From: Escherichia coli
Lineage (GTDB): Bacteria; Pseudomonadota; Gammaproteobacteria; Enterobacterales; Enterobacteriaceae
Direction: 5' to 3' (one strand)
DNA length: 64,000 bases
Assembly (NCBI RefSeq): GCF_048403405.1
Contig: NZ_CP183129.1
The notes beneath the pieces were generated by a model. It did not search any database, had not been told where the DNA came from, and worked only from the letters and a program-made list of their open reading frames with translations. Of the stretch, positions 25,600 through 55,898 are shown one piece after another; positions within the stretch are counted from its first letter, which is position 1, and every line of letters starts with the position of its first letter. The position numbers were made by a program, and so were the translations under genes.

Positions 25600-25923
25600 T
25601 GTTATCTCCTGCTGAGTATTACGCCTGTGCGGTGCCACAATCGGCCCAACTATTATGAGGCGCAAATTTTAATGCTTAGTGACTATAGACTATCCGGGCA
25701 ATGTTTCCACCGCGTATAACTTTTTTTACCTAAAGGTTACAATTATTCAGAATTATCTTTTTACCGAAGCGCGGTCTTCAGTATAAGCATTCATTTTTCA
25801 TATGATTTGTGCGCTTGACCGCAAACTGGCATCACACTTGCGGGAAATTCGATAAATAGCACATATGATTAAAACTCAGACCCAAGTGGTCGGATCACCT
25901 GCATATCATAAGAAGGAAACACC

Positions 25924-26478
25924 ATGACCCTACGCAAGATTCTGGCACTCACCTGCCTGCTGTTGCCGATGATGGCTTCCGCACATCAGTTCGAAACCGG
26001 TCAGCGAGTGCCGCCGATTGGCATTACCGATCGTGGCGAGTTGGTGCTTGATAAAGATCAGTTTAGCTACAAAACCTGGAACAGCGCGCAGTTAGTGGGA
26101 AAAGTGCGAGTACTGCAACATATTGCTGGTCGCACCTCTGCAAAAGAGAAAAACGCGACGCTGATTGAAGCGATTAAATCAGCAAAGTTACCGCACGATC
26201 GTTACCAGACCACCACCATTGTTAACACCGACGACGCAATTCCGGGTTCCGGCATGTTTGTGCGCAGCAGTCTGGAAAGTAATAAAAAGCTTTATCCCTG
26301 GTCGCAGTTTATTGTCGATAGCAATGGCGTCGCGCGCGGTGCCTGGCAGCTGGATGAAGAAAGTTCCGCTGTAGTGGTGCTGGATAAAGACGGTCGCGTG
26401 CAATGGGCCAAAGACGGGGCGCTCACACAGGAAGAGGTGCAGCAAGTGATGGACCTGCTGCAAAAGTTGCTCAAATAA
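25924..26478 (+). CDS. ytfJ: periplasmic protein YtfJ
   Basis: 184 aa with signal peptide. Confidence 0.9.
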   Translation: MTLRKILALTCLLLPMMASAHQFETGQRVPPIGITDRGELVLDKDQFSYKTWNSAQLVGKVRVLQHIAGRTSAKEKNATLIEAIKSAKLPHDRYQTTTIVNTDDAIPGSGMFVRSSLESNKKLYPWSQFIVDSNGVARGAWQLDEESSAVVVLDKDGRVQWAKDGALTQEEVQQVMDLLQKLLK

Positions 26479-26510
26479 TGGCAATAACATAAATTCTGCA
26501 AAATAATTTT

Positions 26511-26537
26511 CCCCTATCGTTATCTATGGGATAGGGG
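26511..26537. terminator. hairpin between the convergent ytfJ and ytfI
   Basis: cccctatc (26511-26518) pairs with gatagggg (26530-26537), flanked by A/T-rich sequence. Confidence 0.55.
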
Positions 26538-26566
26538 AATTAAGCCTCTGAGTTCTTACGCCGAAC

Positions 26567-27478
26567 TCATACTGGTAACGCTAGTTGCTTTTTTTTAAAC
26601 GCCTCAATGGTCGATTTATATTTCTCGCAAATCTTTTCTTCGGTAATATCACTATCTGCGGCCAGATTCGCACTTACTATCGCATCCACTTGTTCGGCTA
26701 ATTCGACTTGTTGGCAACCTGCATTAACCAGAAAATTATAAATAAGAGAGTAATCTTCATCCTTCAAAAAAACAGAGGAACCATTACGAAAACGTTCATC
26801 CCCTCCATAGATTTTAAGCGCAAAGCCCAAAGATTCTATGACTATGGCAAAATTATCATCAATTATTTTTTCGTAAATATACCATCCATCGCATTCTTTA
26901 ATTCCACCTCCTGGAATTTGGAGGTCAAATTTACCCCGTTTTAATTTGCTTACTATATCCTCCAATAAGGCATAACCTAAAGACACGTCACCAATCGCCT
27001 GGCGAATATAACCTTTAATCCTTTCCGGTATGTCAGACTGTTTTTTCTGCAGAATATCCCGGGCATACAATCTTCTGTTTTGTTCTAACGGAAACTCGCG
27101 GTTTTTGAAATCCATGAATGAGTTATACTCATTTATTGTTATGGGAATTTCTTCGTATTCAAACCCACTGCCTCGCAATGTCATTATATATTTGGCACCG
27201 TTATCTTTAATGCTGAAACTGATAAGAAACTTATCCATGGCGTGAACATTTTCATTTTTTGATGAAAGCACCTGATAACTACTTTTATCAATCTGAGTTG
27301 CGCAACGAAAGAACTCCCGCAAAGTTAACAGGCTATCATAATTCGAAATCCAATCTTTTTTCTTAAATGCATGCTGGATATTGTTAAAAAAATTGTTTGA
27401 ATGTGTTTTTGTATGCGATGATTTTACGAATAACTCCACCGCACCAATAAAATTATTGTGTCTGATCCTGGGTAACAT
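26567..27478 (-). CDS. ytfI: uncharacterised protein YtfI (AT-rich orphan gene)
   Basis: 303 aa ORF with ATG at 27476-27478; markedly AT-rich; no domain recognisable by eye. Confidence 0.8.
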   Translation of the reverse strand: MLPRIRHNNFIGAVELFVKSSHTKTHSNNFFNNIQHAFKKKDWISNYDSLLTLREFFRCATQIDKSSYQVLSSKNENVHAMDKFLISFSIKDNGAKYIMTLRGSGFEYEEIPITINEYNSFMDFKNREFPLEQNRRLYARDILQKKQSDIPERIKGYIRQAIGDVSLGYALLEDIVSKLKRGKFDLQIPGGGIKECDGWYIYEKIIDDNFAIVIESLGFALKIYGGDERFRNGSSVFLKDEDYSLIYNFLVNAGCQQVELAEQVDAIVSANLAADSDITEEKICEKYKSTIEAFKKKQLALPV

Positions 27479-27690
27479 ATGGCTACCTTATTTTATTTGG
27501 TTATTTTATGTCGCCATTAAATATCTCATTATAGAAGTATAACTATCAAAAAACGCTCATTATTAAAATGTAACTTATTAGCAATTGAATTTTTGCACTT
27601 TAAATACAATCTCTTTTTATTTATAACTTTTTAGGTTGAGAGAAATCAGGATGGCAGAATCAGGAAATACACTGTTTCTGCCATCTGAAT

Positions 27691-28431
27691 TTAGTAAATA
27701 GACACTCTGAATCCCGGATTCAGGAACGACTCGCGCGGAGTGTAATCCAGCGGTTTACCCTGCCAGTCGTGAACGTGCGCTCCGGCAGCTGCGGCCACAG
27801 CATGTCCAGCGGCGGTGTCCCAAATATTCGTTGGTCCGAAGCGCGGGTACAGCTGCGCCTGCCCTTCCGCCACCAGGCAGAATTTCAGCGAAGAGCCGAT
27901 GGACGTGGTCTGATGTTCGCCAAGCTGTTGCAGATACTCTTTCAGCTCCGCATCTGCATGGGAACGGCTGATAACCACCAGCGGCGGGCGCGCATCACGG
28001 ACCTGAATCTGCTTGCGCACGCCGCACTCTTCTTTCCACGCTTTGCCTTCTGCCGCGCTGTACATTACGTTCATTACCGGCGCATACACCACACCTAAAA
28101 TCGGTTTGCCGTGGTCGATGAGCGCAATGTTAACGGTGAATTCGCCATTGCGTTTAATAAACTCTTTAGTACCATCCAGCGGGTCTACCAGCCAGTAACG
28201 CTGCCAGTGCTGACGGACTTCCCAACCGGGAGGATCTTCTTCAGAAAGCACCGGAATATCCGGTGTCAGCGTACGTAAACCGTCCATGATAACGGTGTGA
28301 GCGGCAATATCCGCTGCCGTTACCGGAGAATTGTCCGCTTTGCTGACGACGTCCATCGGTTTCGTCCCGTCGTAGACCTGCATAATGGCATCGCCTGCAT
28401 TCCGTGCAAGCTGGCATACTTGATCTAACAT
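27691..28431 (-). CDS. cysQ: 3'(2'),5'-bisphosphate nucleotidase
   Basis: 246 aa inositol monophosphatase family (DPLDGT motif). Confidence 0.95.
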
Positions 28432-36239: not shown

Positions 36240-36456
36240 CGTATTTCCTTTCTTAGGGTATAAAGTAGCGGGCAGCATATCAGCCACACTTCTTTGGGTA
36301 AAACTTTGTCGCGGGAATGATGACAAATCCCGGGGAAAAAGAAACAATAGCAATATCCCGTATGAATATAATAAAGGCGGGTTTACCACGGACATCATAG
36401 CGTTAGCTTATTCATAGGCTATGATTGAGGAACAAGACGCGGAGCAGGAGGAAACC

Positions 36457-37095
36457 ATGCCCGGGCGCTTTGAACTAAAACCAACCCTGGAGAAAGTCTG
36501 GCACGCGCCAGACAATTTTCGCTTCATGGACCCGCTGCCGCCGATGCATCGTCGGGGGATCATTATTGCCGCCATTGTATTGGTGGTCGGATTTCTGCTT
36601 CCATCTGATGATACGCCCAACGCGCCGGTGGTGACGCGTGAAGCGCAGTTAGATATTCAGTCGCAATCACAACCACCGACAGAAGAACAGCTGCGGGCGC
36701 AATTAGTCACGCCACAAAATGATCCTGATCAGGTGGCTCCGGTCGCTCCAGAACCAATACAGGAAGGCCAGCCAGAAGAGCAGCCGCAACCCCCCCAAAC
36801 GCAACCATTCCAGCCAGATAGCGGAATTGATAATCAATGGCGCTCTTACCGTGTCGAACCCGGTAAAACGATGGCACAGCTGTTCCGCGACCACGGGCTG
36901 CCCGCTACCGATGTCTATGCAATGGCGCAGGTAGAAGGCGCGGGTAAGCCGCTGAGTAATTTGCAAAACGGGCAGATGGTGAAAATCCGCCAGAACGCCA
37001 GCGGCGTGGTGACGGGCTTAACCATTGATACGGGGAATAATCAACAGGTCTTGTTTACCCGCCAGCCGGATGGCAGTTTTATTCGTGCGCGGTAG
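36457..37095 (+). CDS. ytfB: cell division protein YtfB (OapA-like)
   Basis: 212 aa from MPGRFELK (ATG 36457 with aggagg SD); TM segment and Pro/Gln-rich linker. Confidence 0.9.
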
Positions 37096-37404
37096 ATGAA
37101 GGGTCAACCAAAAGCCAGCTAAGGATTGTCTCTTTGATGACCTTACGTCTGGCTTCCAGTGCCTGGGGGAAACCATACTGATATGATAAACCAGGCCAAG
37201 CGTATGCTGGTTGATCAAATAATATCCCCCAAGCGCAGCAATATTAATATACACCTGCAATGGGTCGATATCTGGCTTAAAAATATTGTGTTTCTTCCCT
37301 TCATCCAATAAGGATTCCATTAACTGCAAGTGCGCATGATTAATTTCTAAGAGACGCTGTGATTTTGCATAATGCACACCTTTACTTTGGTTTTCACTAT
37401 GCAC
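37018..37404 (-). pseudogene. ytfA: remnant of a TetR-family regulator (C-terminal ligand-binding part only)
   Basis: ORF with GTG start; sequence (…[22 protein letters not shown]…) resembles a TetR C-terminal domain; no HTH domain; overlaps the ytfB 3' end antisense by 78 nt. Confidence 0.45.
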
Positions 37405-37751
37405 AATTTTTAAAAACCTGGGATTAGCAATATAATAATTCCATGTAAAATCAATAATTTCTCAATGGCACTTGTGTCTGGTTAACCTGCTGATTAACGA
37501 ACTTACCGATACCGACAGCGTAGAATAATTACATACCGCACAACAAGAATGTATGGTGTAAGGCGTTGTCAGTCATCTCCCTCCCTGGGTGCATCGTTAT
37601 ATCCGTGATGAGCGATTTTTGATATTAATATCTTTTACTATCCGCTATTTTCACCACTTCAGAAAACAAACTTATTTTTATTAATATCAACTCTTTTTCT
37701 TTGAACATTCAACTGCGATATTTGTAAAAATATTAAACAGGCAACAATAAA

Positions 37752-38546
37752 ATGACATTACCAACCACTATTTATTCATTTCCTGCATATTCACCCCGTT
37801 TTTCGTCCACCGACAAACCAGTAAAATTAAAATTTCATCAATACGCACGCGCTACATTACTTTCAAATCGTGGAAGAGACCATAATTGCGATGGCAGACA
37901 TACTGTTGAGATCCACAAACTAGATCTCTCAGACTGGCAAGCATTCAATAAGTTAGCGACGAGGTGTAATACTTACGATGGAATAACAATGAATGGTGAT
38001 AATTCTTTTGGATGGAACCATGAAGCTACATTAGATAATATTCACGCCCAGAAATACAATAAAGCTTACGCGGGTGCGAGGTTAACCGCAGAACTGAAAT
38101 ATTTATTGCAAGATGTTGAATCCTTCGAACCCAACAGTAAATACACAATACACGAGGTTGTTTTGGGACCTGGTTATAGTACTCCAGACTATACCGGCCA
38201 AACGATAGGATACGTTGTAACCCTTCCTGCCCAAATGCCTAATTGCTGGTCATCTGAACTACCAACAATCGATCTTTATATCGACCAACTTCGCACTGTT
38301 ACAGGCGTTTCTAATGCCCTCGGATTCATCATTGCTGCATTGCTAAACGCGTATTCTGATTTACCCCATGATTTGAAAATTGGTCTGCGTTCCTTATCAA
38401 GTTCAGCAGCAATCTACTCGGGTTTGGGTTTCGAGCGAGTGCCGCAGGAGCGAGACATAAGGAGTGATCGTATGCATCTAACGCCAGCAAACCATCCTGA
38501 ATTATGGACACAAGAGAATGGTGAATGGATCTACTTGCGAAACTAA
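37752..38546 (+). CDS. yjfZ: uncharacterised protein YjfZ (AT-rich orphan gene)
   Basis: 264 aa; AT-rich; preceded by a 347-bp AT-rich non-coding region. Confidence 0.8.
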   Translation: MTLPTTIYSFPAYSPRFSSTDKPVKLKFHQYARATLLSNRGRDHNCDGRHTVEIHKLDLSDWQAFNKLATRCNTYDGITMNGDNSFGWNHEATLDNIHAQKYNKAYAGARLTAELKYLLQDVESFEPNSKYTIHEVVLGPGYSTPDYTGQTIGYVVTLPAQMPNCWSSELPTIDLYIDQLRTVTGVSNALGFIIAALLNAYSDLPHDLKIGLRSLSSSAAIYSGLGFERVPQERDIRSDRMHLTPANHPELWTQENGEWIYLRN

Positions 38547-38566
38547 TACCTAACGAAAAATAGAAA

Positions 38567-38597
38567 GCAAAACGCCGACCAGTGGTCGGCGTTTTTA
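38567..38597. terminator. bidirectional rho-independent terminator between yjfZ and rplI
   Basis: aacgccgacc-agt-ggtcggcgtt perfect 10-bp stem with A-run upstream and ttttt downstream. Confidence 0.8.
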
Positions 38598-38616
38598 CGT
38601 CTCGTTGAATAACGAA

Positions 38617-39078
<462 letters not shown>

Positions 39079-39107
39079 TCAAAGTCGTATTAATGGACCG
39101 TGACCGA

Positions 39108-39654
<547 letters not shown>

Positions 39655-53921: not shown

Positions 53922-54620
53922 TTACTCGCCCTGTTGGCGTTGCAGTCTTGCTAATACATCCTGGGCGCTACTTTTATTGCTACCGCCTATTCCGGCTTCC
54001 GCCAGCTTTTCATCAAGATCGCGACCGTCTGCGACTTTTTCCAACTGTGCAGCAGCATCCAGACGAGCCTGACGTTCGGCCTGACGCGTTTGCAGGCGTT
54101 TTAAGGATTCTGCCGCTGTCGAAACGCTGGAAGATGCGCCAACGGTAGAGGTCGTTACAGCCTGTTGTGCACGCTGCATGGCTTCAGTGGCTTTAACGAC
54201 TTCCATTTGCTGCTCAAACTGAGCGATACGCTGCGCTGTCGCTGTAACTGCTTTTTCCACGCCATCACGAGAGACTTCCAGATTCGACAACACTTGCTCT
54301 TCAGCGGTAATGAGATTCTCAAGGCGCGCGATTTCTTCAGCAACTTCGTTAATCAACGACGGATTAACGTTCTTGCTTAACGCTTCCAGCGCACGGGCTT
54401 CCAGACTGGCTTTGCGCTCACGTAAATCTTTCAGCTTATCGTGACTTAATTTCACCCGCGCCAGCAGATCAACGCGAGATTTTCCGGCTTTATCGAGTTC
54501 AGCTTTAGCGTCACGGATATGCTGTTCCAGCATGCGCACGCCCTGGGTTTCTTCAATGGATTCTTCCGCCTGGGAGATAAACGATTTCCCCAGCGTAAAT
54601 AAACTTTTTAAAATTCCCAT
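53922..54620 (-). CDS. yjfJ: PspA/IM30-family protein YjfJ
   Basis: 232 aa; long coiled-coil sequence typical of PspA/Vipp1-like proteins. Confidence 0.88.
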   Translation of the reverse strand: MGILKSLFTLGKSFISQAEESIEETQGVRMLEQHIRDAKAELDKAGKSRVDLLARVKLSHDKLKDLRERKASLEARALEALSKNVNPSLINEVAEEIARLENLITAEEQVLSNLEVSRDGVEKAVTATAQRIAQFEQQMEVVKATEAMQRAQQAVTTSTVGASSSVSTAAESLKRLQTRQAERQARLDAAAQLEKVADGRDLDEKLAEAGIGGSNKSSAQDVLARLQRQQGE

Positions 54621-54638
54621 AAATACCCGTCCTTGTAA

Positions 54639-55040
54639 TTAGAGTGAATATTCTTCTGTAATTTCAGCCAGATCCAATGCGTTATCTACCAGCGAGGTTA
54701 TCTCAAGCAGGATATCTTCAAGAGAAGATTTAAGCGATAACGCCCCGAAAACAATGTAATACTCTTCATGTTGCACGCTGGAGATCCCTACCGATGACAA
54801 CGGCATCATCTTCTGATTTCTTAATAAGAAGGTATTAAATTCATCTGGATTGCTGATACTACTTACCGGACAAATAAAGGTTTCGATAATCATTTGGCGG
54901 GAAGTAAATAGAATATTGATTTGCAAATCGCCATAATCATTCATTTTAATAATTAATGCGTTCTCGCCATTTGTTACATCAATATTTTGTTCAGGTACAG
55001 TTTGCAGCGCCGTCGCCAGCGCCAACGGATTCCATGTCAT
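54639..55040 (-). CDS. yjfI: DUF2170 protein YjfI
   Basis: 133 aa; first gene of the cluster. Confidence 0.85.
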   Translation of the reverse strand: MTWNPLALATALQTVPEQNIDVTNGENALIIKMNDYGDLQINILFTSRQMIIETFICPVSSISNPDEFNTFLLRNQKMMPLSSVGISSVQHEEYYIVFGALSLKSSLEDILLEITSLVDNALDLAEITEEYSL

Positions 55041-55119
55041 ATATTATTCCATATAAATTAAGTTTAAATATTAATAAAATGAATATTTGCAGTACGTAAT
55101 TATCTTACCAGCTATAGAC

Positions 55120-55151
55120 AAAAAAAAACCATCCAAATCTGGATGGTTTTT
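55120..55151. terminator. bidirectional rho-independent terminator downstream of rlmB
   Basis: A-run 55120-55128, ccatcca-aatc-tggatgg stem-loop, ttttt 55147-55151. Confidence 0.8.
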
Positions 55152-55166
55152 CATAATTCAGAGGAA

Positions 55167-55898
55167 CTAGCTGCGCTGTCGCACCGCTTCAAATAAGCAA
55201 ATCCCTGTCGCCACAGAAACGTTCAGCGAAGAAACACTTCCTGCCATTGGGATGCTGATCAACTCGTCGCAATGTTCACGGGTCAGGCGACGCATACCTT
55301 CACCTTCCGCGCCCATCACCAGCGCCAGGCGTCCGGTCATTTTGCTCTGATAGAGTGTATGATCTGCCTCGCCTGCCGTACCGACGATCCAGATATTCTC
55401 TTCCTGCAACATACGCATGGTGCGCGCCAGATTAGTCACCCGAATCAGCGGAACGCTTTCTGCCGCACCACAGGCCACTTTTTTCGCCGTGGCGTTGAGC
55501 TGTGCGGAGCGATCTTTCGGCACAATCACCGCATGAACACCAGCGGCGTCCGCGCTACGCAGGCACGCGCCGAGGTTGTGCGGATCGGTTACGCCGTCGA
55601 GGATCAGCAGGAACGGTTGATCGAGCGAAGCGATCAGATCCGGCAGATCGTTTTCCTGATACTGCCGTCCTGGCTTCACACGGGCGATAATGCCCTGATG
55701 CACGGCACCGTCGCTTTTCTCGTCGAGATACTGACGGTTCGCCAACTGGATAACCACGCCCTGGGACTCAAGGGCGTGAATCAGCGGTAACAGACGTTTA
55801 TCTTCACGGCCTTTTAAAATAAAGACTTCCTGAAAACGTTCAGGGGCGCGCTCCAGCAGGGCCTGCACTGCGTGGATGCCGTAAATCATTTCGCTCAT
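55167..55898 (-). CDS. rlmB: 23S rRNA (guanosine2251-2'-O)-methyltransferase
   Basis: 243 aa SpoU/TrmH family. Confidence 0.95.

What the first reader, a model, noticed from the sequence alone, without database searches (positions are those of the whole stretch)
37018..38546. AT-rich islet carrying orphan yjfZ next to a truncated TetR-like regulator remnant (ytfA) that overlaps the ytfB 3' end
The yjfZ ORF (264 aa) and the 347-bp region upstream of it (37405-37751) are strongly AT-rich. Directly adjacent on the opposite strand is an ORF whose product resembles only the C-terminal ligand-binding half of a TetR-family repressor; it lacks the N-terminal HTH and overlaps the ytfB 3' end antisense by 78 nt. 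This looks like an old insertion that disrupted a regulator gene. The YjfZ C-terminal stretch AAIYSGLGFERV loosely resembles the Y...GF acyl-CoA-binding motif of GNAT acetyltransferases, but that is a weak impression.
Basis: inference. Interest (0 to 1): 0.5.

Follow-up and report, generated by a model that had tools for sequence, protein, structure and literature searches.

The report
Deletion scar beside orphan gene yjfZ
This stretch of an E. coli chromosome is the scar of old deletions that removed a regulator's DNA-binding half and its whole 7-kb catabolic operon. It sits next to a small AT-rich accessory gene (yjfZ) that did not cause the damage and probably encodes a very divergent acetyltransferase-like protein, so this is ordinary genome decay and not a new system.

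Summary
The described features are real. yjfZ (37752-38546) and its upstream spacer are AT-rich: the spacer is 33% GC and the region 40%, against 51.5% for the window. The opposite-strand ORF is the C-terminal domain of a TetR regulator.

The "insertion disrupted a regulator" reading is wrong. About 58% of 5,426 complete E. coli genomes, plus E. albertii, E. whittamii, Klebsiella spallanzanii and Entomohabitans, carry ytfB, an intact 215-aa TetR, a divergent five-enzyme operon, an MFS or TRAP transporter, then rplI.

The window carries a scar shared by 2,228 genomes:
- A 541-bp deletion between 8-bp repeats removed the HTH, the promoter region and the start of the first operon gene, an SDR (short-chain dehydrogenase/reductase).
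- A 7.3-kb deletion removed the rest, leaving an 84-nt SDR fragment.

The 78-nt overlap with ytfB comes from a private 1-nt frameshift; the native overlap is 17 nt.

yjfZ is a separate 1-kb module in a swap slot beside the rplI terminator. Other strains hold a hipBA-like cassette there, or nothing, and yjfZ coexists with the intact regulator in about 310 genomes. YjfZ (DUF2686, paralogue of YjiC) is restricted to Escherichia and under moderate purifying selection. Low-confidence models match only GNAT folds, but no sequence-level GNAT signal is significant. Interest is low to moderate.

The parts
36457..37095 (+). ytfB (cell division protein YtfB), the conserved left flank of the variable locus
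   Evidence: PGAP annotation of the near-identical L001. dN/dS is 0.02-0.07.
37079..37481 (-). ytfA pseudogene: residues ~82-215 (TetR_C_29 domain) of a 215-aa TetR/AcrR regulator. The native stop is at 37079-37081, overlapping ytfB by 17 nt.
   Evidence: tblastn against the intact allele, Pfam domains of the intact protein, and PGAP 'missing N-terminus' in L001 and L015.
37018..37404 (-). Residues ~1-82 are true TetR frame from an internal GTG. The rest is out-of-frame read-through to 37018.
37165..37169 (.). G5 run (G6 in intact alleles and in the closest relative): a private -1 frameshift that creates the 78-nt overlap. A second private 1-nt loss lies in the T-run 37458-37460.
   Evidence: MAFFT alignment of the window with L001, L007 and L004; scar alignment.
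37472..37481 (.). Junction 1: the decayed single copy of the 8-bp direct repeat GTGGCGGA. It marks a 541-bp deletion that removed TetR residues 1-~81, the divergent promoter region and SDR nt 1-79.
   Evidence: The repeat copies lie at L007 1827 and 2368, and likewise in L004.
37482..37565 (+). Fragment (nt 89-172) of the first operon gene, the SDR annotated '3-ketoacyl-ACP reductase'. It is 82-89% identical to intact Escherichia alleles.
   Evidence: blastn against L007 and L004; annotated SDR genes lie under the match in about 3,100 genomes; comparison with outgroups.
37560..37566 (.). Junction 2 (window type): SDR '..AAGGCG' joined to the MFS-yjfZ intergenic 'TTGTCAG..', a ~7.33-kb deletion. 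K-12, O157 and E1V33 use a different junction 27 bp further on, at TCCCTG.
   Evidence: 497 genomes have the window type and 1,540-1,705 the K-12 type.
37566..38563 (+). The yjfZ module: an AT-rich 5' region (to 37751) plus the yjfZ CDS 37752-38546. It occupies the cargo slot between the transporter terminator and the rplI terminator.
   Evidence: Boundaries come from comparing haplotypes L007, L012, L006 and L018. GC 39.8% for 37560-38563. An RpoD promoter and H-NS site are reported in this spacer (PMC3946193).
37752..38546 (+). yjfZ, 264 aa, Pfam DUF2686, a paralogue of yjiC. Predicted GNAT-like fold at low confidence.
38569..38595 (.). Hairpin terminator downstream of rplI, facing yjfZ. All haplotypes reconverge at 38564.
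   Evidence: Terminator scan; haplotype alignments.

Best explanation
The region is two unrelated things lying side by side.

(1) ytfA is a dead relic. In the ancestral arrangement, still the commoner one, a 215-aa TetR/AcrR repressor sits tail-to-tail with ytfB. It is transcribed divergently from an operon encoding an SDR, a xylose-isomerase-like TIM-barrel protein, an enoyl-CoA hydratase, a family-I CoA-transferase, a fumarate-reductase-like flavoprotein, and an MFS or TRAP carboxylate transporter. This operon presumably catabolises an unidentified organic acid through a CoA thioester (inferred). In the window's lineage two microhomology-mediated deletions destroyed it. A 541-bp deletion between GTGGCGGA repeats took the HTH, the shared promoter region and the start of the SDR gene. 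A ~7.33-kb deletion took the rest. What remains is the TetR ligand-binding domain, 84 nt of SDR, and then the DNA that used to lie downstream of the transporter. The remnant decayed further, by two private frameshifts in this strain and by an IS200/IS605 insertion at the site equivalent to window 37185 in most other scar genomes.

(2) yjfZ is an independent 1-kb AT-rich accessory module. It occupies a swap slot just before the rplI terminator, where other strains hold a hipBA-like toxin-antitoxin cassette or nothing. It predates the large deletion and did not cause the truncation. It has its own AT-rich 5' region, for which the literature reports an RpoD-holoenzyme promoter and an H-NS site. 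It is kept intact under moderate purifying selection. Its product, one of the Escherichia-restricted YjfZ/YjiC (DUF2686) pair, most likely folds as a divergent GNAT-like domain (residues ~50-264) behind a disordered N-terminus. Whether it still binds acyl-CoA and transfers an acyl group is inferred, not shown.
For: **Haplotypes**
- Intact TetR plus operon plus TRAP.
- Intact TetR plus operon plus MFS plus yjfZ.
- MFS plus hipBA-like cassette.

**Census of 5,426 complete genomes**
- Scar: 2,228.
- yjfZ: 2,538.
- MFS: 1,693.
- TRAP: 1,446.
- hipBA cassette: 1,041.

**Ancestral state.** E. whittamii, E. albertii, a further Escherichia species, K. spallanzanii and Entomohabitans all have fklB-ytfB-TetR-operon-transporter-rplI.

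**Junctions.** The SDR fragment and both junctions are shown.

**Domain content.** The HTH is at ~18-60, TetR_C_29 at ~82-200, and the breakpoint at ~82.

**Decay of the remnant**
- Private frameshift.
- IS insertion in 5 of 8 sampled scar loci.
- IS break in 9 of 12 evenly spaced scar rows.

**Module boundaries and shared right end at 38564.**

**YjfZ**
- DUF2686, E 1.9e-151.
- Homologues are found only in E. coli/Shigella and E. albertii, plus one metagenomic singleton.
- dN/dS is 0.19-0.38 with dS like that of ytfB.
- The order of secondary-structure elements in the AF2 model matches the GNAT topology (b1-a1-a2-b2-b3-b4-a3-b5-a4-b6-b7).
- Foldseek top 50 hits are all GNAT, E about 1e-4.
- The distant homologue P0038 gives the same result. 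It has a clearer motif A/B and a faint Acetyltransf_10 hit.

**Literature**
- ytfA is a K-12 pseudogene.
- An RpoD promoter and H-NS site lie in the yjfZ/ytfA spacer.
Against: - Both AF2 models are low confidence (mean pLDDT 39.5 and 41.0). Their alignments overlap, so the two GNAT results are not independent.
- No sequence method links DUF2686 to GNAT. Pfam, NCBIfam and PDB hmmsearch gave nothing. hhalign against the E. coli GNAT YiaC aligned only 11 columns at motif B, with probability 0.25%.
- The canonical Q/R-x-x-G-x-G/A motif is degenerate in YjfZ (T-V-T-G-V-S).
- Escherichia sp. E1V33 has the same scar and the yjfZ 5' region but lacks the yjfZ ORF. So the order 'yjfZ first, deletion second' rests on parsimony.
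- Two different junction-2 sequences exist, so the 7.3-kb loss may not be a single event.
- The TetR remnant is nearly identical to intact alleles: K-12 differs from L004 by 1 nt in 267. This needs recombination with intact haplotypes to be reconciled with an old scar.
- The operon's substrate and the repressor's ligand are unknown.
Confidence: 0.8

Rival explanations
1. One reading: an AT-rich islet carrying yjfZ inserted into a TetR regulator gene and truncated it.
For: yjfZ is AT-rich, accessory (47% of genomes) and directly adjacent to the remnant in this window.
Against: - An SDR-gene fragment lies between the remnant and yjfZ, and the TetR breakpoint is a repeat-mediated deletion joined to that SDR gene, not to yjfZ DNA.
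- yjfZ coexists with the intact regulator about 7.9 kb away in L007-type genomes.
- There are no integrase, att-like or target-site duplication features.
- Outgroups show that the operon is ancestral.
Confidence: 0.03
2. The HTH-less TetR_C remnant (YtfA) is still functional. It could act as a ligand-binding or dominant-negative partner of other TetR proteins, or its transcript could act as an antisense regulator of ytfB.
For: - The frame 84-215 is open in K-12 and in the diverged E1V33.
- Few non-synonymous differences separate the window and K-12 in the core (Sd 6, Nd 3).
- A promoter towards ytfA is reported.
- CRISPRi of ytfA changed dapE and bssS expression.
Against: - The remnant is interrupted by an IS200/IS605 element in most scar genomes.
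- It is frameshifted twice in this window.
- The low pN/pS is explained by near-identity to intact alleles, that is, recombination with haplotypes where the gene is under selection.
- CRISPRi effects could be polar on the overlapping ytfB.
Confidence: 0.07
3. YjfZ is not GNAT-like, or the DUF2686 fold is unrelated or novel, and the GNAT matches are artefacts of low-confidence models.
For: - pLDDT is 39.5 and 41.0.
- TM-scores normalised to the targets are only 0.23-0.55 and Foldseek rmsd 5-11 A.
- No sequence-profile support.
- A competing weak hit of the C-terminal motif goes to cupin oxalate decarboxylases, E 0.009-0.05.
Against: - The order of secondary-structure elements equals the GNAT topology in both proteins.
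- The conserved G-rich loop after b4 and the 'A-x-x-Y-x-x-x-G-F' helix sit where GNAT motifs A and B sit.
Confidence: 0.35
4. yjfZ arrived after the scar formed. In this view E1V33 preserves the pre-insertion state, and the operon-plus-MFS-plus-yjfZ haplotype arose later by recombination.
For: E1V33 has the scar and 155 bp of the yjfZ 5' region, then jumps from window 37714 to 38559, lacking exactly the ORF.
Against: - The 5' region retained in E1V33 is absent from the two empty-slot haplotypes examined, E. whittamii (MFS) and the TRAP type L006. The simpler reading is that it belongs to the yjfZ module and that E1V33 lost the ORF secondarily.
- Junction 2 joins SDR to module DNA, which must therefore have been present when the deletion occurred.
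Confidence: 0.15

Closest known systems
ytfA (b4205) pseudogene of E. coli K-12; TetR/AcrR family regulators with a TetR_C_29 domain
   Same: Same locus and same remnant. PGAP calls it 'TetR/AcrR family transcriptional regulator, missing N-terminus'. The literature treats ytfA as a pseudogene and as a TetR-family regulator present in only some E. coli strains.
   Different: This strain adds two private frameshifts, which creates the longer 128-aa ORF. I found nothing in the searched library describing the lost operon, the SDR fragment, the repeat-mediated junctions or the haplotype census.
YjiC (DUF2686, 'YjfZ/YjiC family'), between iraD and uxuR
   Same: The only paralogue. It shares 40-45% identity, has a similar length (276 aa) and similar AT-richness (40% GC), and is restricted to Escherichia.
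   Different: yjiC is in about 90% of complete E. coli genomes and in E. albertii. yjfZ is in 47% and sits in a swappable slot.
GNAT (Gcn5-related N-acetyltransferase) superfamily, e.g. SpeG, NatD, PaiA, RimI/L, TacT/AtaT toxins
   Same: The predicted topology and the fold-search hits match. A glycine-rich loop follows b4, and a Y-x-x-x-G-F helix sits at the motif B position.
   Different: No significant sequence-profile match. Motif A is degenerate. There is a ~50-residue N-terminal extension and a conserved C-terminal R-M-x-L-x-P...G-E-W motif not typical of GNATs. No activity data exist.
Variable 'cargo slots' between conserved core genes (homologous-recombination replacement hotspots) holding toxin-antitoxin modules
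   Same: The same flanks (MFS terminator and rplI terminator) hold yjfZ, a hipBA-like cassette, or nothing. In other genera the slot holds an EamA transporter.
   Different: yjfZ has no partner gene and no hit in PADLOC or PHROGs, so nothing shows it is a toxin or a defence gene.

Membership tests
TetR/AcrR transcriptional regulator (functional member) | N-terminal HTH DNA-binding domain (Pfam TetR_N) | tested here: not met
   The intact allele has TetR_N at ~18-60. The window retains only residues ~82-215, and no HTH is found in any frame of 36900-37800.
TetR/AcrR transcriptional regulator (functional member) | C-terminal ligand-binding/dimerisation domain in one open frame | tested here: not met
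   The TetR_C_29 homology is present at 94% identity, but it is split by a -1 frameshift at 37165-37169 and another at 37458-37460.
TetR/AcrR transcriptional regulator (functional member) | Adjacent divergently transcribed target operon | tested here: not met
   The operon is present in L003, L004, L006, L007 and the outgroups, but is deleted here except for 84 nt of the SDR gene.
Pfam DUF2686 (YjfZ/YjiC family) | Full-length match to PF10887 above threshold | tested here: met
   E 1.9e-151, residues 5-264 matched to model positions 17-285 of 285.
GNAT superfamily | Fold: mixed sheet with b1-a1-a2-b2-b3-b4-a3-b5-a4-b6-b7 topology | tested here: inconclusive
GNAT superfamily | Significant sequence-profile match to a GNAT family model | tested here: not met
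   - Pfam finds only DUF2686 in YjfZ.
- Acetyltransf_10 scores E 0.35 in the distant homologue P0038.
- NCBIfam gives nothing.
- PDB hmmsearch gives no GNAT.
- hhalign against YiaC gives probability 0.25%.
GNAT superfamily | Motif A pyrophosphate-binding loop Q/R-x-x-G-x-G/A at the b4-a3 junction | tested here: inconclusive
   The family consensus is T-x-x-G-x-S/A-x-x-x-G at the predicted b4-a3 junction. The glycines are conserved, but the Q/R is replaced and the last position is S.
GNAT superfamily | Acyl-CoA binding and acyl transfer | not testable with these tools
   Needs purified protein.
Genomic island / mobile insertion | Integrase or transposase, att sites or target-site duplication at the borders | tested here: not met
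   The module is 1.0 kb with a single gene. Its borders are the MFS terminator and the rplI terminator, with no repeats and no mobility gene. IS elements seen in other strains are secondary.
Type II toxin-antitoxin module (occupant of the same slot in other strains) | Two-gene operon of toxin and cognate antitoxin | tested here: not met
   yjfZ is monocistronic between the scar and the rplI terminator. It has no PADLOC hit.

The most novel reading that the evidence does not exclude
DUF2686 (YjfZ/YjiC) may be an Escherichia-born, extremely divergent GNAT-fold acyltransferase with a new substrate, held in an H-NS-bound slot that alternates with a HipBA toxin-antitoxin cassette. That placement would fit a stand-alone toxin, immunity or modification function. 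Separately, the ytfB-rplI locus may be an ancient, trans-species presence/absence polymorphism of a catabolic operon. Under that reading, once the promoter and regulator were lost, the dead operon was removed at least twice independently, which would explain the two different 7.3-kb junctions behind one shared 541-bp junction.
Probability: 0.15. Interest if true: 0.5.

Novelty: new member of a known kind. Interest (0 to 1): 0.27.

Why it matters
- It corrects a plausible but wrong reading. The HTH-less regulator is the product of operon loss, not of an insertion.
- It explains why K-12, O157 and about 41% of complete E. coli genomes lack a catabolic operon that the rest of the species and its relatives keep. 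That makes the operon's unknown substrate and TetR ligand testable through natural plus/minus strains.
- It gives two uncharacterised E. coli proteins (YjfZ and YjiC) a first testable fold hypothesis.
- It shows that yjfZ is present in only 47% of complete genomes, and that a published 'YjfZ' E. coli marker assay actually targets yjiC.

None of this is a new kind of system.

Tried and rejected
**Sequence-level GNAT detection.** All of these gave nothing significant:
- Pfam on YjfZ.
- NCBIfam.
- PDB hmmsearch with two alignments. The only weak hits were cupin oxalate decarboxylases to the C-terminal motif, judged chance.
- hhalign against the GNAT YiaC.

**Defence and phage libraries.** PADLOC and PHROGs gave nothing.

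**Wider homologue searches.**
- A full HMMER scan of 1.84 billion representatives gave only fragments of YjfZ/YjiC plus one 329-aa singleton, P0038.
- A search seeded with P0038 found only itself.
- A profile of the C-terminal domain found only DUF2686 proteins.

**Structure prediction.** Two AF2 runs stayed at pLDDT about 40 because the family is too shallow.

**RNA families.** Rfam on 36400-39200 gave only sub-threshold noise.

**Is the yjfZ 5' region derived from the SDR gene?** I tested this because it would have reversed the order of events. A shuffle test showed no similarity above chance (score 19 against 18.4 +/- 2.2), so I rejected it.

**The '12-bp filler' at junction 1.** I first read it this way. 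It is the decayed copy of the 8-bp repeat.

**Finding yjiC in strain J53.** Two guesses at its coordinates missed because that genome is rearranged. I found it by DNA search instead.

**Low pN/pS of the remnant as evidence of function.** I considered this and rejected it, because remnant alleles are interleaved with, and nearly identical to, intact alleles, and most scar genomes carry an IS in the remnant.
Full report
**Where we are.** The window is an E. coli chromosome segment. The local gene order is cycA, fklB, ytfB, ytfA remnant, yjfZ, rplI-rpsR-priB-rpsF, yjfY, ula. The closest complete genome, TUM14771, is 99.9% identical over 36900-38700.

**Checking the observation.** The coordinates are correct:
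- yjfZ is 37752-38546 (+), 264 aa.
- The opposite-strand ORF is 37018-37404 (-), 128 aa, with a GTG start.
- The spacer between them is 37405-37751, 347 bp.
- ytfB ends at 37095, so the ORF overlap is 78 nt.

The AT-richness is real. The window averages 51.5% GC. The spacer is 33.1%, yjfZ 41.9% and the whole finding 40.2%. Only 0.5% of 347-bp windows and 1% of 1,529-bp windows in the 64 kb are as low.

The ORF is a TetR C-terminal domain. An intact 215-aa allele from other strains aligns at 94% identity over residues 89-188. Pfam places TetR_N at about 18-60 and TetR_C_29 at about 82-200 of the intact protein.

**The 78-nt overlap is an artefact.** Residues 188-215 of the regulator are encoded in a different frame and end at a stop at 37079-37081. 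The frame change is the loss of one G from a G6 run (window 37165-37169). This loss is absent from the nearest relative L001 and from intact alleles. Read-through from that frameshift carries the ORF on to 37018. In intact genes the overlap with ytfB is 17 nt. A second private 1-nt loss lies in the T-run at 37458-37460.

**What the locus looks like elsewhere.** The ytfB-rplI interval is polymorphic in E. coli.
- In many genomes ytfB is followed by the intact TetR gene and a divergent operon. The operon encodes an SDR annotated '3-ketoacyl-ACP reductase', a sugar-phosphate isomerase/epimerase-family TIM barrel, an enoyl-CoA hydratase, an acyl-CoA:acetate/3-ketoacid CoA-transferase and a ~690-aa FAD oxidoreductase of the fumarate-reductase/aspartate-oxidase type.
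- The operon ends with either a TRAP transporter (QMP subunits) or an MFS transporter of the D-galactonate family.
- TRAP haplotypes run straight into the rplI terminator.
- MFS haplotypes carry yjfZ (L007), a 2.2-kb hipBA-like cassette, or something else or nothing.

**Census of 5,426 complete genomes.**

| Feature | Genomes |
|---|---|
| Scar junction as in the window | 2,228 |
| yjfZ | 2,538 |
| MFS gene | 1,693 |
| TRAP genes | 1,446 |
| hipBA-like cassette | 1,041 |

By subtraction, about 310 genomes have the intact operon plus MFS plus yjfZ, and about 340 MFS genomes have neither cassette. This arithmetic assumes that scar genomes all carry yjfZ and that the hipBA cassette is confined to MFS haplotypes.

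**Ancestral state.** I scanned one genome per species with the intact TetR protein. The scan found fklB-ytfB-TetR-SDR-TIM barrel-hydratase-CoA transferase-flavoprotein-(MFS or TRAP)-rplI in four species: E. whittamii, a further Escherichia species representative, Klebsiella spallanzanii and Entomohabitans teleogrylli. The same order appears in E. albertii as far as its contig reaches. The operon is therefore ancestral at this site and the window's arrangement is derived. [quoted passage not shown] It also treats K-12 ytfA as a pseudogene (bioRxiv 10.64898/2025.12.20.695731).

**Anatomy of the scar.** Alignment of the window with the intact haplotype L007 shows three pieces:
- Homology runs up to window 37469-37481, inside the TetR gene.
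- Window 37482-37565 matches nt 89-172 of the SDR gene at 82-89% identity.
- From 37560-37566 onward the window matches the intergenic DNA downstream of the MFS gene, 5' of yjfZ.

Junction 1 is a clean deletion of 541 bp between two copies of GTGGCGGA. One copy lies in the antisense strand of the TetR gene at L007 1827 and the other in the SDR gene at L007 2368. Both copies are also present in L004. This deletion removed TetR residues 1 to about 81, the divergent promoter region and the first 79 nt of the SDR gene.

Junction 2 removed about 7.33 kb. In the window, L001 and L002 the SDR sequence '..AAGGCG' is joined to 'TTGTCAG..' of the intergenic region. In K-12, O157 and Escherichia sp. E1V33 the SDR sequence continues 27 nt further and joins at a shared TCCCTG. 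The window type is in 497 genomes and the K-12 type in 1,540-1,705.

All scar alleles share junction 1 and derived substitutions in the SDR fragment. Neither junction-2 type can be derived from the other by deletion. Two independent removals of an already dead operon is therefore the simplest reading, but I could not exclude a conversion event. I tested whether the yjfZ 5' region is itself SDR-derived, which would change the order of events. It is not (local score 19 against shuffles of 18.4 +/- 2.2).

**Age and decay.** Escherichia sp. E1V33 is about 9% diverged from E. coli in ytfB. It carries the same scar, with the TetR remnant 9% diverged and the SDR fragment plus spacer 16% diverged. So the scar either predates the diversification of E. 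coli or crossed species boundaries long ago.

Within E. coli the TetR remnant does not form its own clade. K-12's remnant differs from an intact allele by 1 nt in 267. That implies recombination with intact haplotypes through the shared ytfB-TetR homology. It also explains the deceptively low pN/pS of the remnant.

The remnant is not maintained as a gene:
- An IS200/IS605 element with TnpB sits at the position of window 37185 in 5 of 8 sampled scar loci.
- The same break appears in 9 of 12 evenly spaced scar rows of the first search.
- The window itself has two frameshifts.

**The yjfZ module.** All haplotypes reconverge at window 38564, just before the rplI terminator hairpin at 38569-38595. 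On the left, yjfZ-type and hipBA-type MFS haplotypes share the MFS terminator and then diverge. The yjfZ module is 1,037 bp in L007 and the hipBA-like cassette 2,207 bp in L012. E. whittamii has nothing in the slot. Klebsiella spallanzanii and Entomohabitans hold an EamA-type transporter there. No mobility gene, repeat or att-like feature bounds the module. E1V33 keeps 155 bp of the yjfZ 5' region but lacks window 37715-38558, that is, exactly the ORF. I read this as secondary loss, because that 5' region is absent from the two empty-slot haplotypes examined, E. whittamii (MFS) and the TRAP-type L006. The alternative, late arrival of the ORF, is kept as a rival.

**What YjfZ is.**
- Family: it is a full-length Pfam DUF2686 protein (E 1.9e-151).
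- Distribution: relatives appear only in E. coli/Shigella and E. albertii, plus one 329-aa metagenomic singleton, P0038. The searches were a word-indexed search of 5.8 billion proteins, an exhaustive HMMER scan of 1.84 billion representatives, and a profile search with the C-terminal domain.
- Paralogue: the E. albertii protein lies beside uxuR and an IraD-like gene and is the orthologue of E. coli yjiC. yjiC lies between iraD and uxuR and is present in about 4,880 of 5,426 genomes.
- Selection: all six yjfZ alleles examined are intact. dN/dS is 0.19-0.38 and dS is 0.02-0.08, like that of ytfB, whose dN/dS is 0.02-0.07. So yjfZ is a real gene under moderate constraint, inherited with its flanks.

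P0038 has a more canonical motif A (H-P-G-A-S-G-A-G-G) and motif B (A-Y-L-A-M-G-F-E-F), and a faint Acetyltransf_10 match at E 0.35.

No sequence method links the family to GNATs. PADLOC and PHROGs are silent. I therefore put the GNAT-like fold at roughly 0.55-0.65 and retained acyltransferase activity lower.

**Expression context from the literature.** The yjfZ/ytfA spacer is listed as holding RpoD-holoenzyme promoters in both directions and an H-NS site (PMC3946193). A low FlhDC SELEX peak is listed between yjfZ and ytfB (PMC9962212). My own promoter scan found no more sites than in shuffled sequence.

**Verdict.**
The remnant and the accessory AT-rich gene are right, and the GNAT hint is plausible. 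The insertion mechanism is wrong.
- The region is a deletion scar of a regulator-plus-operon unit, next to an independent orphan-gene module in a swappable slot. The pseudogene is already known.
- New here, as far as the searched literature shows, are the reconstruction of what was lost and how, the haplotype census and the fold hypothesis for DUF2686. All are ordinary in kind.

Noticed in passing
yjiC locus L098 3001-3831; no match in the window or in the K-12 yjfZ locus L015: The qPCR and Sanger primers and the probe published as a 'YjfZ' E. coli-specific marker (PMC11057252) map with 0-1 mismatches to yjiC. They do not map to yjfZ at up to 2 mismatches. yjfZ itself is in only 47% of complete genomes, against about 90% for yjiC, so the assay's good coverage is explained by its real target.
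   Followed up: yes
window ~26000-27500 (ytfI, between cysQ and ytfJ): This is the lowest-GC kilobase of the window (34.7% GC). It carries ytfI and is also a presence/absence polymorphism: only 1,609 of 5,426 genomes cover at least 80% of 25800-27800.
   Followed up: partly
window 37185 (equivalent site in L002, L016, L099, L100, L101): An IS200/IS605 (IS609-like) element with a TnpB gene and a tnpA that is often degraded is inserted at the same point of the TetR remnant in most scar genomes, including O157:H7. It is absent from the window and from K-12.
   Followed up: partly
window 37540-37600 versus K-12 (L015) and E1V33 (L022): There are two different junction sequences for the 7.3-kb deletion, 27 bp apart. 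Each lies at a short microhomology (GCG(T) versus TCCCTG), behind a single shared 541-bp junction. The counts are 497 versus 1,540-1,705 genomes. An intermediate haplotype carrying only the first deletion was not found.
   Followed up: partly
L012 / L013 3824-6030 (the slot equivalent to window 37566-38563): A hipBA-like cassette, made of an HTH antitoxin-like gene plus a HipA-family toxin, occupies the yjfZ slot in 1,041 genomes. The hipA gene is annotated as frameshifted in both loci inspected.
   Followed up: partly
L004 9595-14274 (strain Res13-Lact-PER02-33): Two IS1 copies split the TRAP dctP gene and yjfY, and the rpsF-priB-rpsR-rplI block between them is inverted. This is an IS1-mediated inversion of a ribosomal-protein operon.
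   Followed up: no
L022 (Escherichia sp. E1V33), equivalent to window 37715-38558: The locus has the same scar and the same yjfZ 5' region, but the yjfZ ORF (844 bp) is missing with no obvious repeat at the borders. Secondary loss and pre-insertion state are not fully resolved.
   Followed up: partly
L014 (Logan SRR22388111 contig, 1.5 kb): The only distant DUF2686 relative, P0038 (329 aa), has a long helical N-terminal extension and lies directly downstream of an HU/IHF-type gene. Its organism is unknown.
   Followed up: no
YjfZ residues ~231-263 (window ~38442-38540): The conserved C-terminal motif R-M-x-L-x-P-A-x-x-P-E...G-E-W-x-Y gives weak hits (E 0.009-0.05) to the first cupin motif region of oxalate decarboxylases. 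I judged this to be chance, but it recurred in two searches.
   Followed up: no
window ~54250-55250: Another low-GC kilobase (41-43% GC) in the window. I did not examine it.
   Followed up: no
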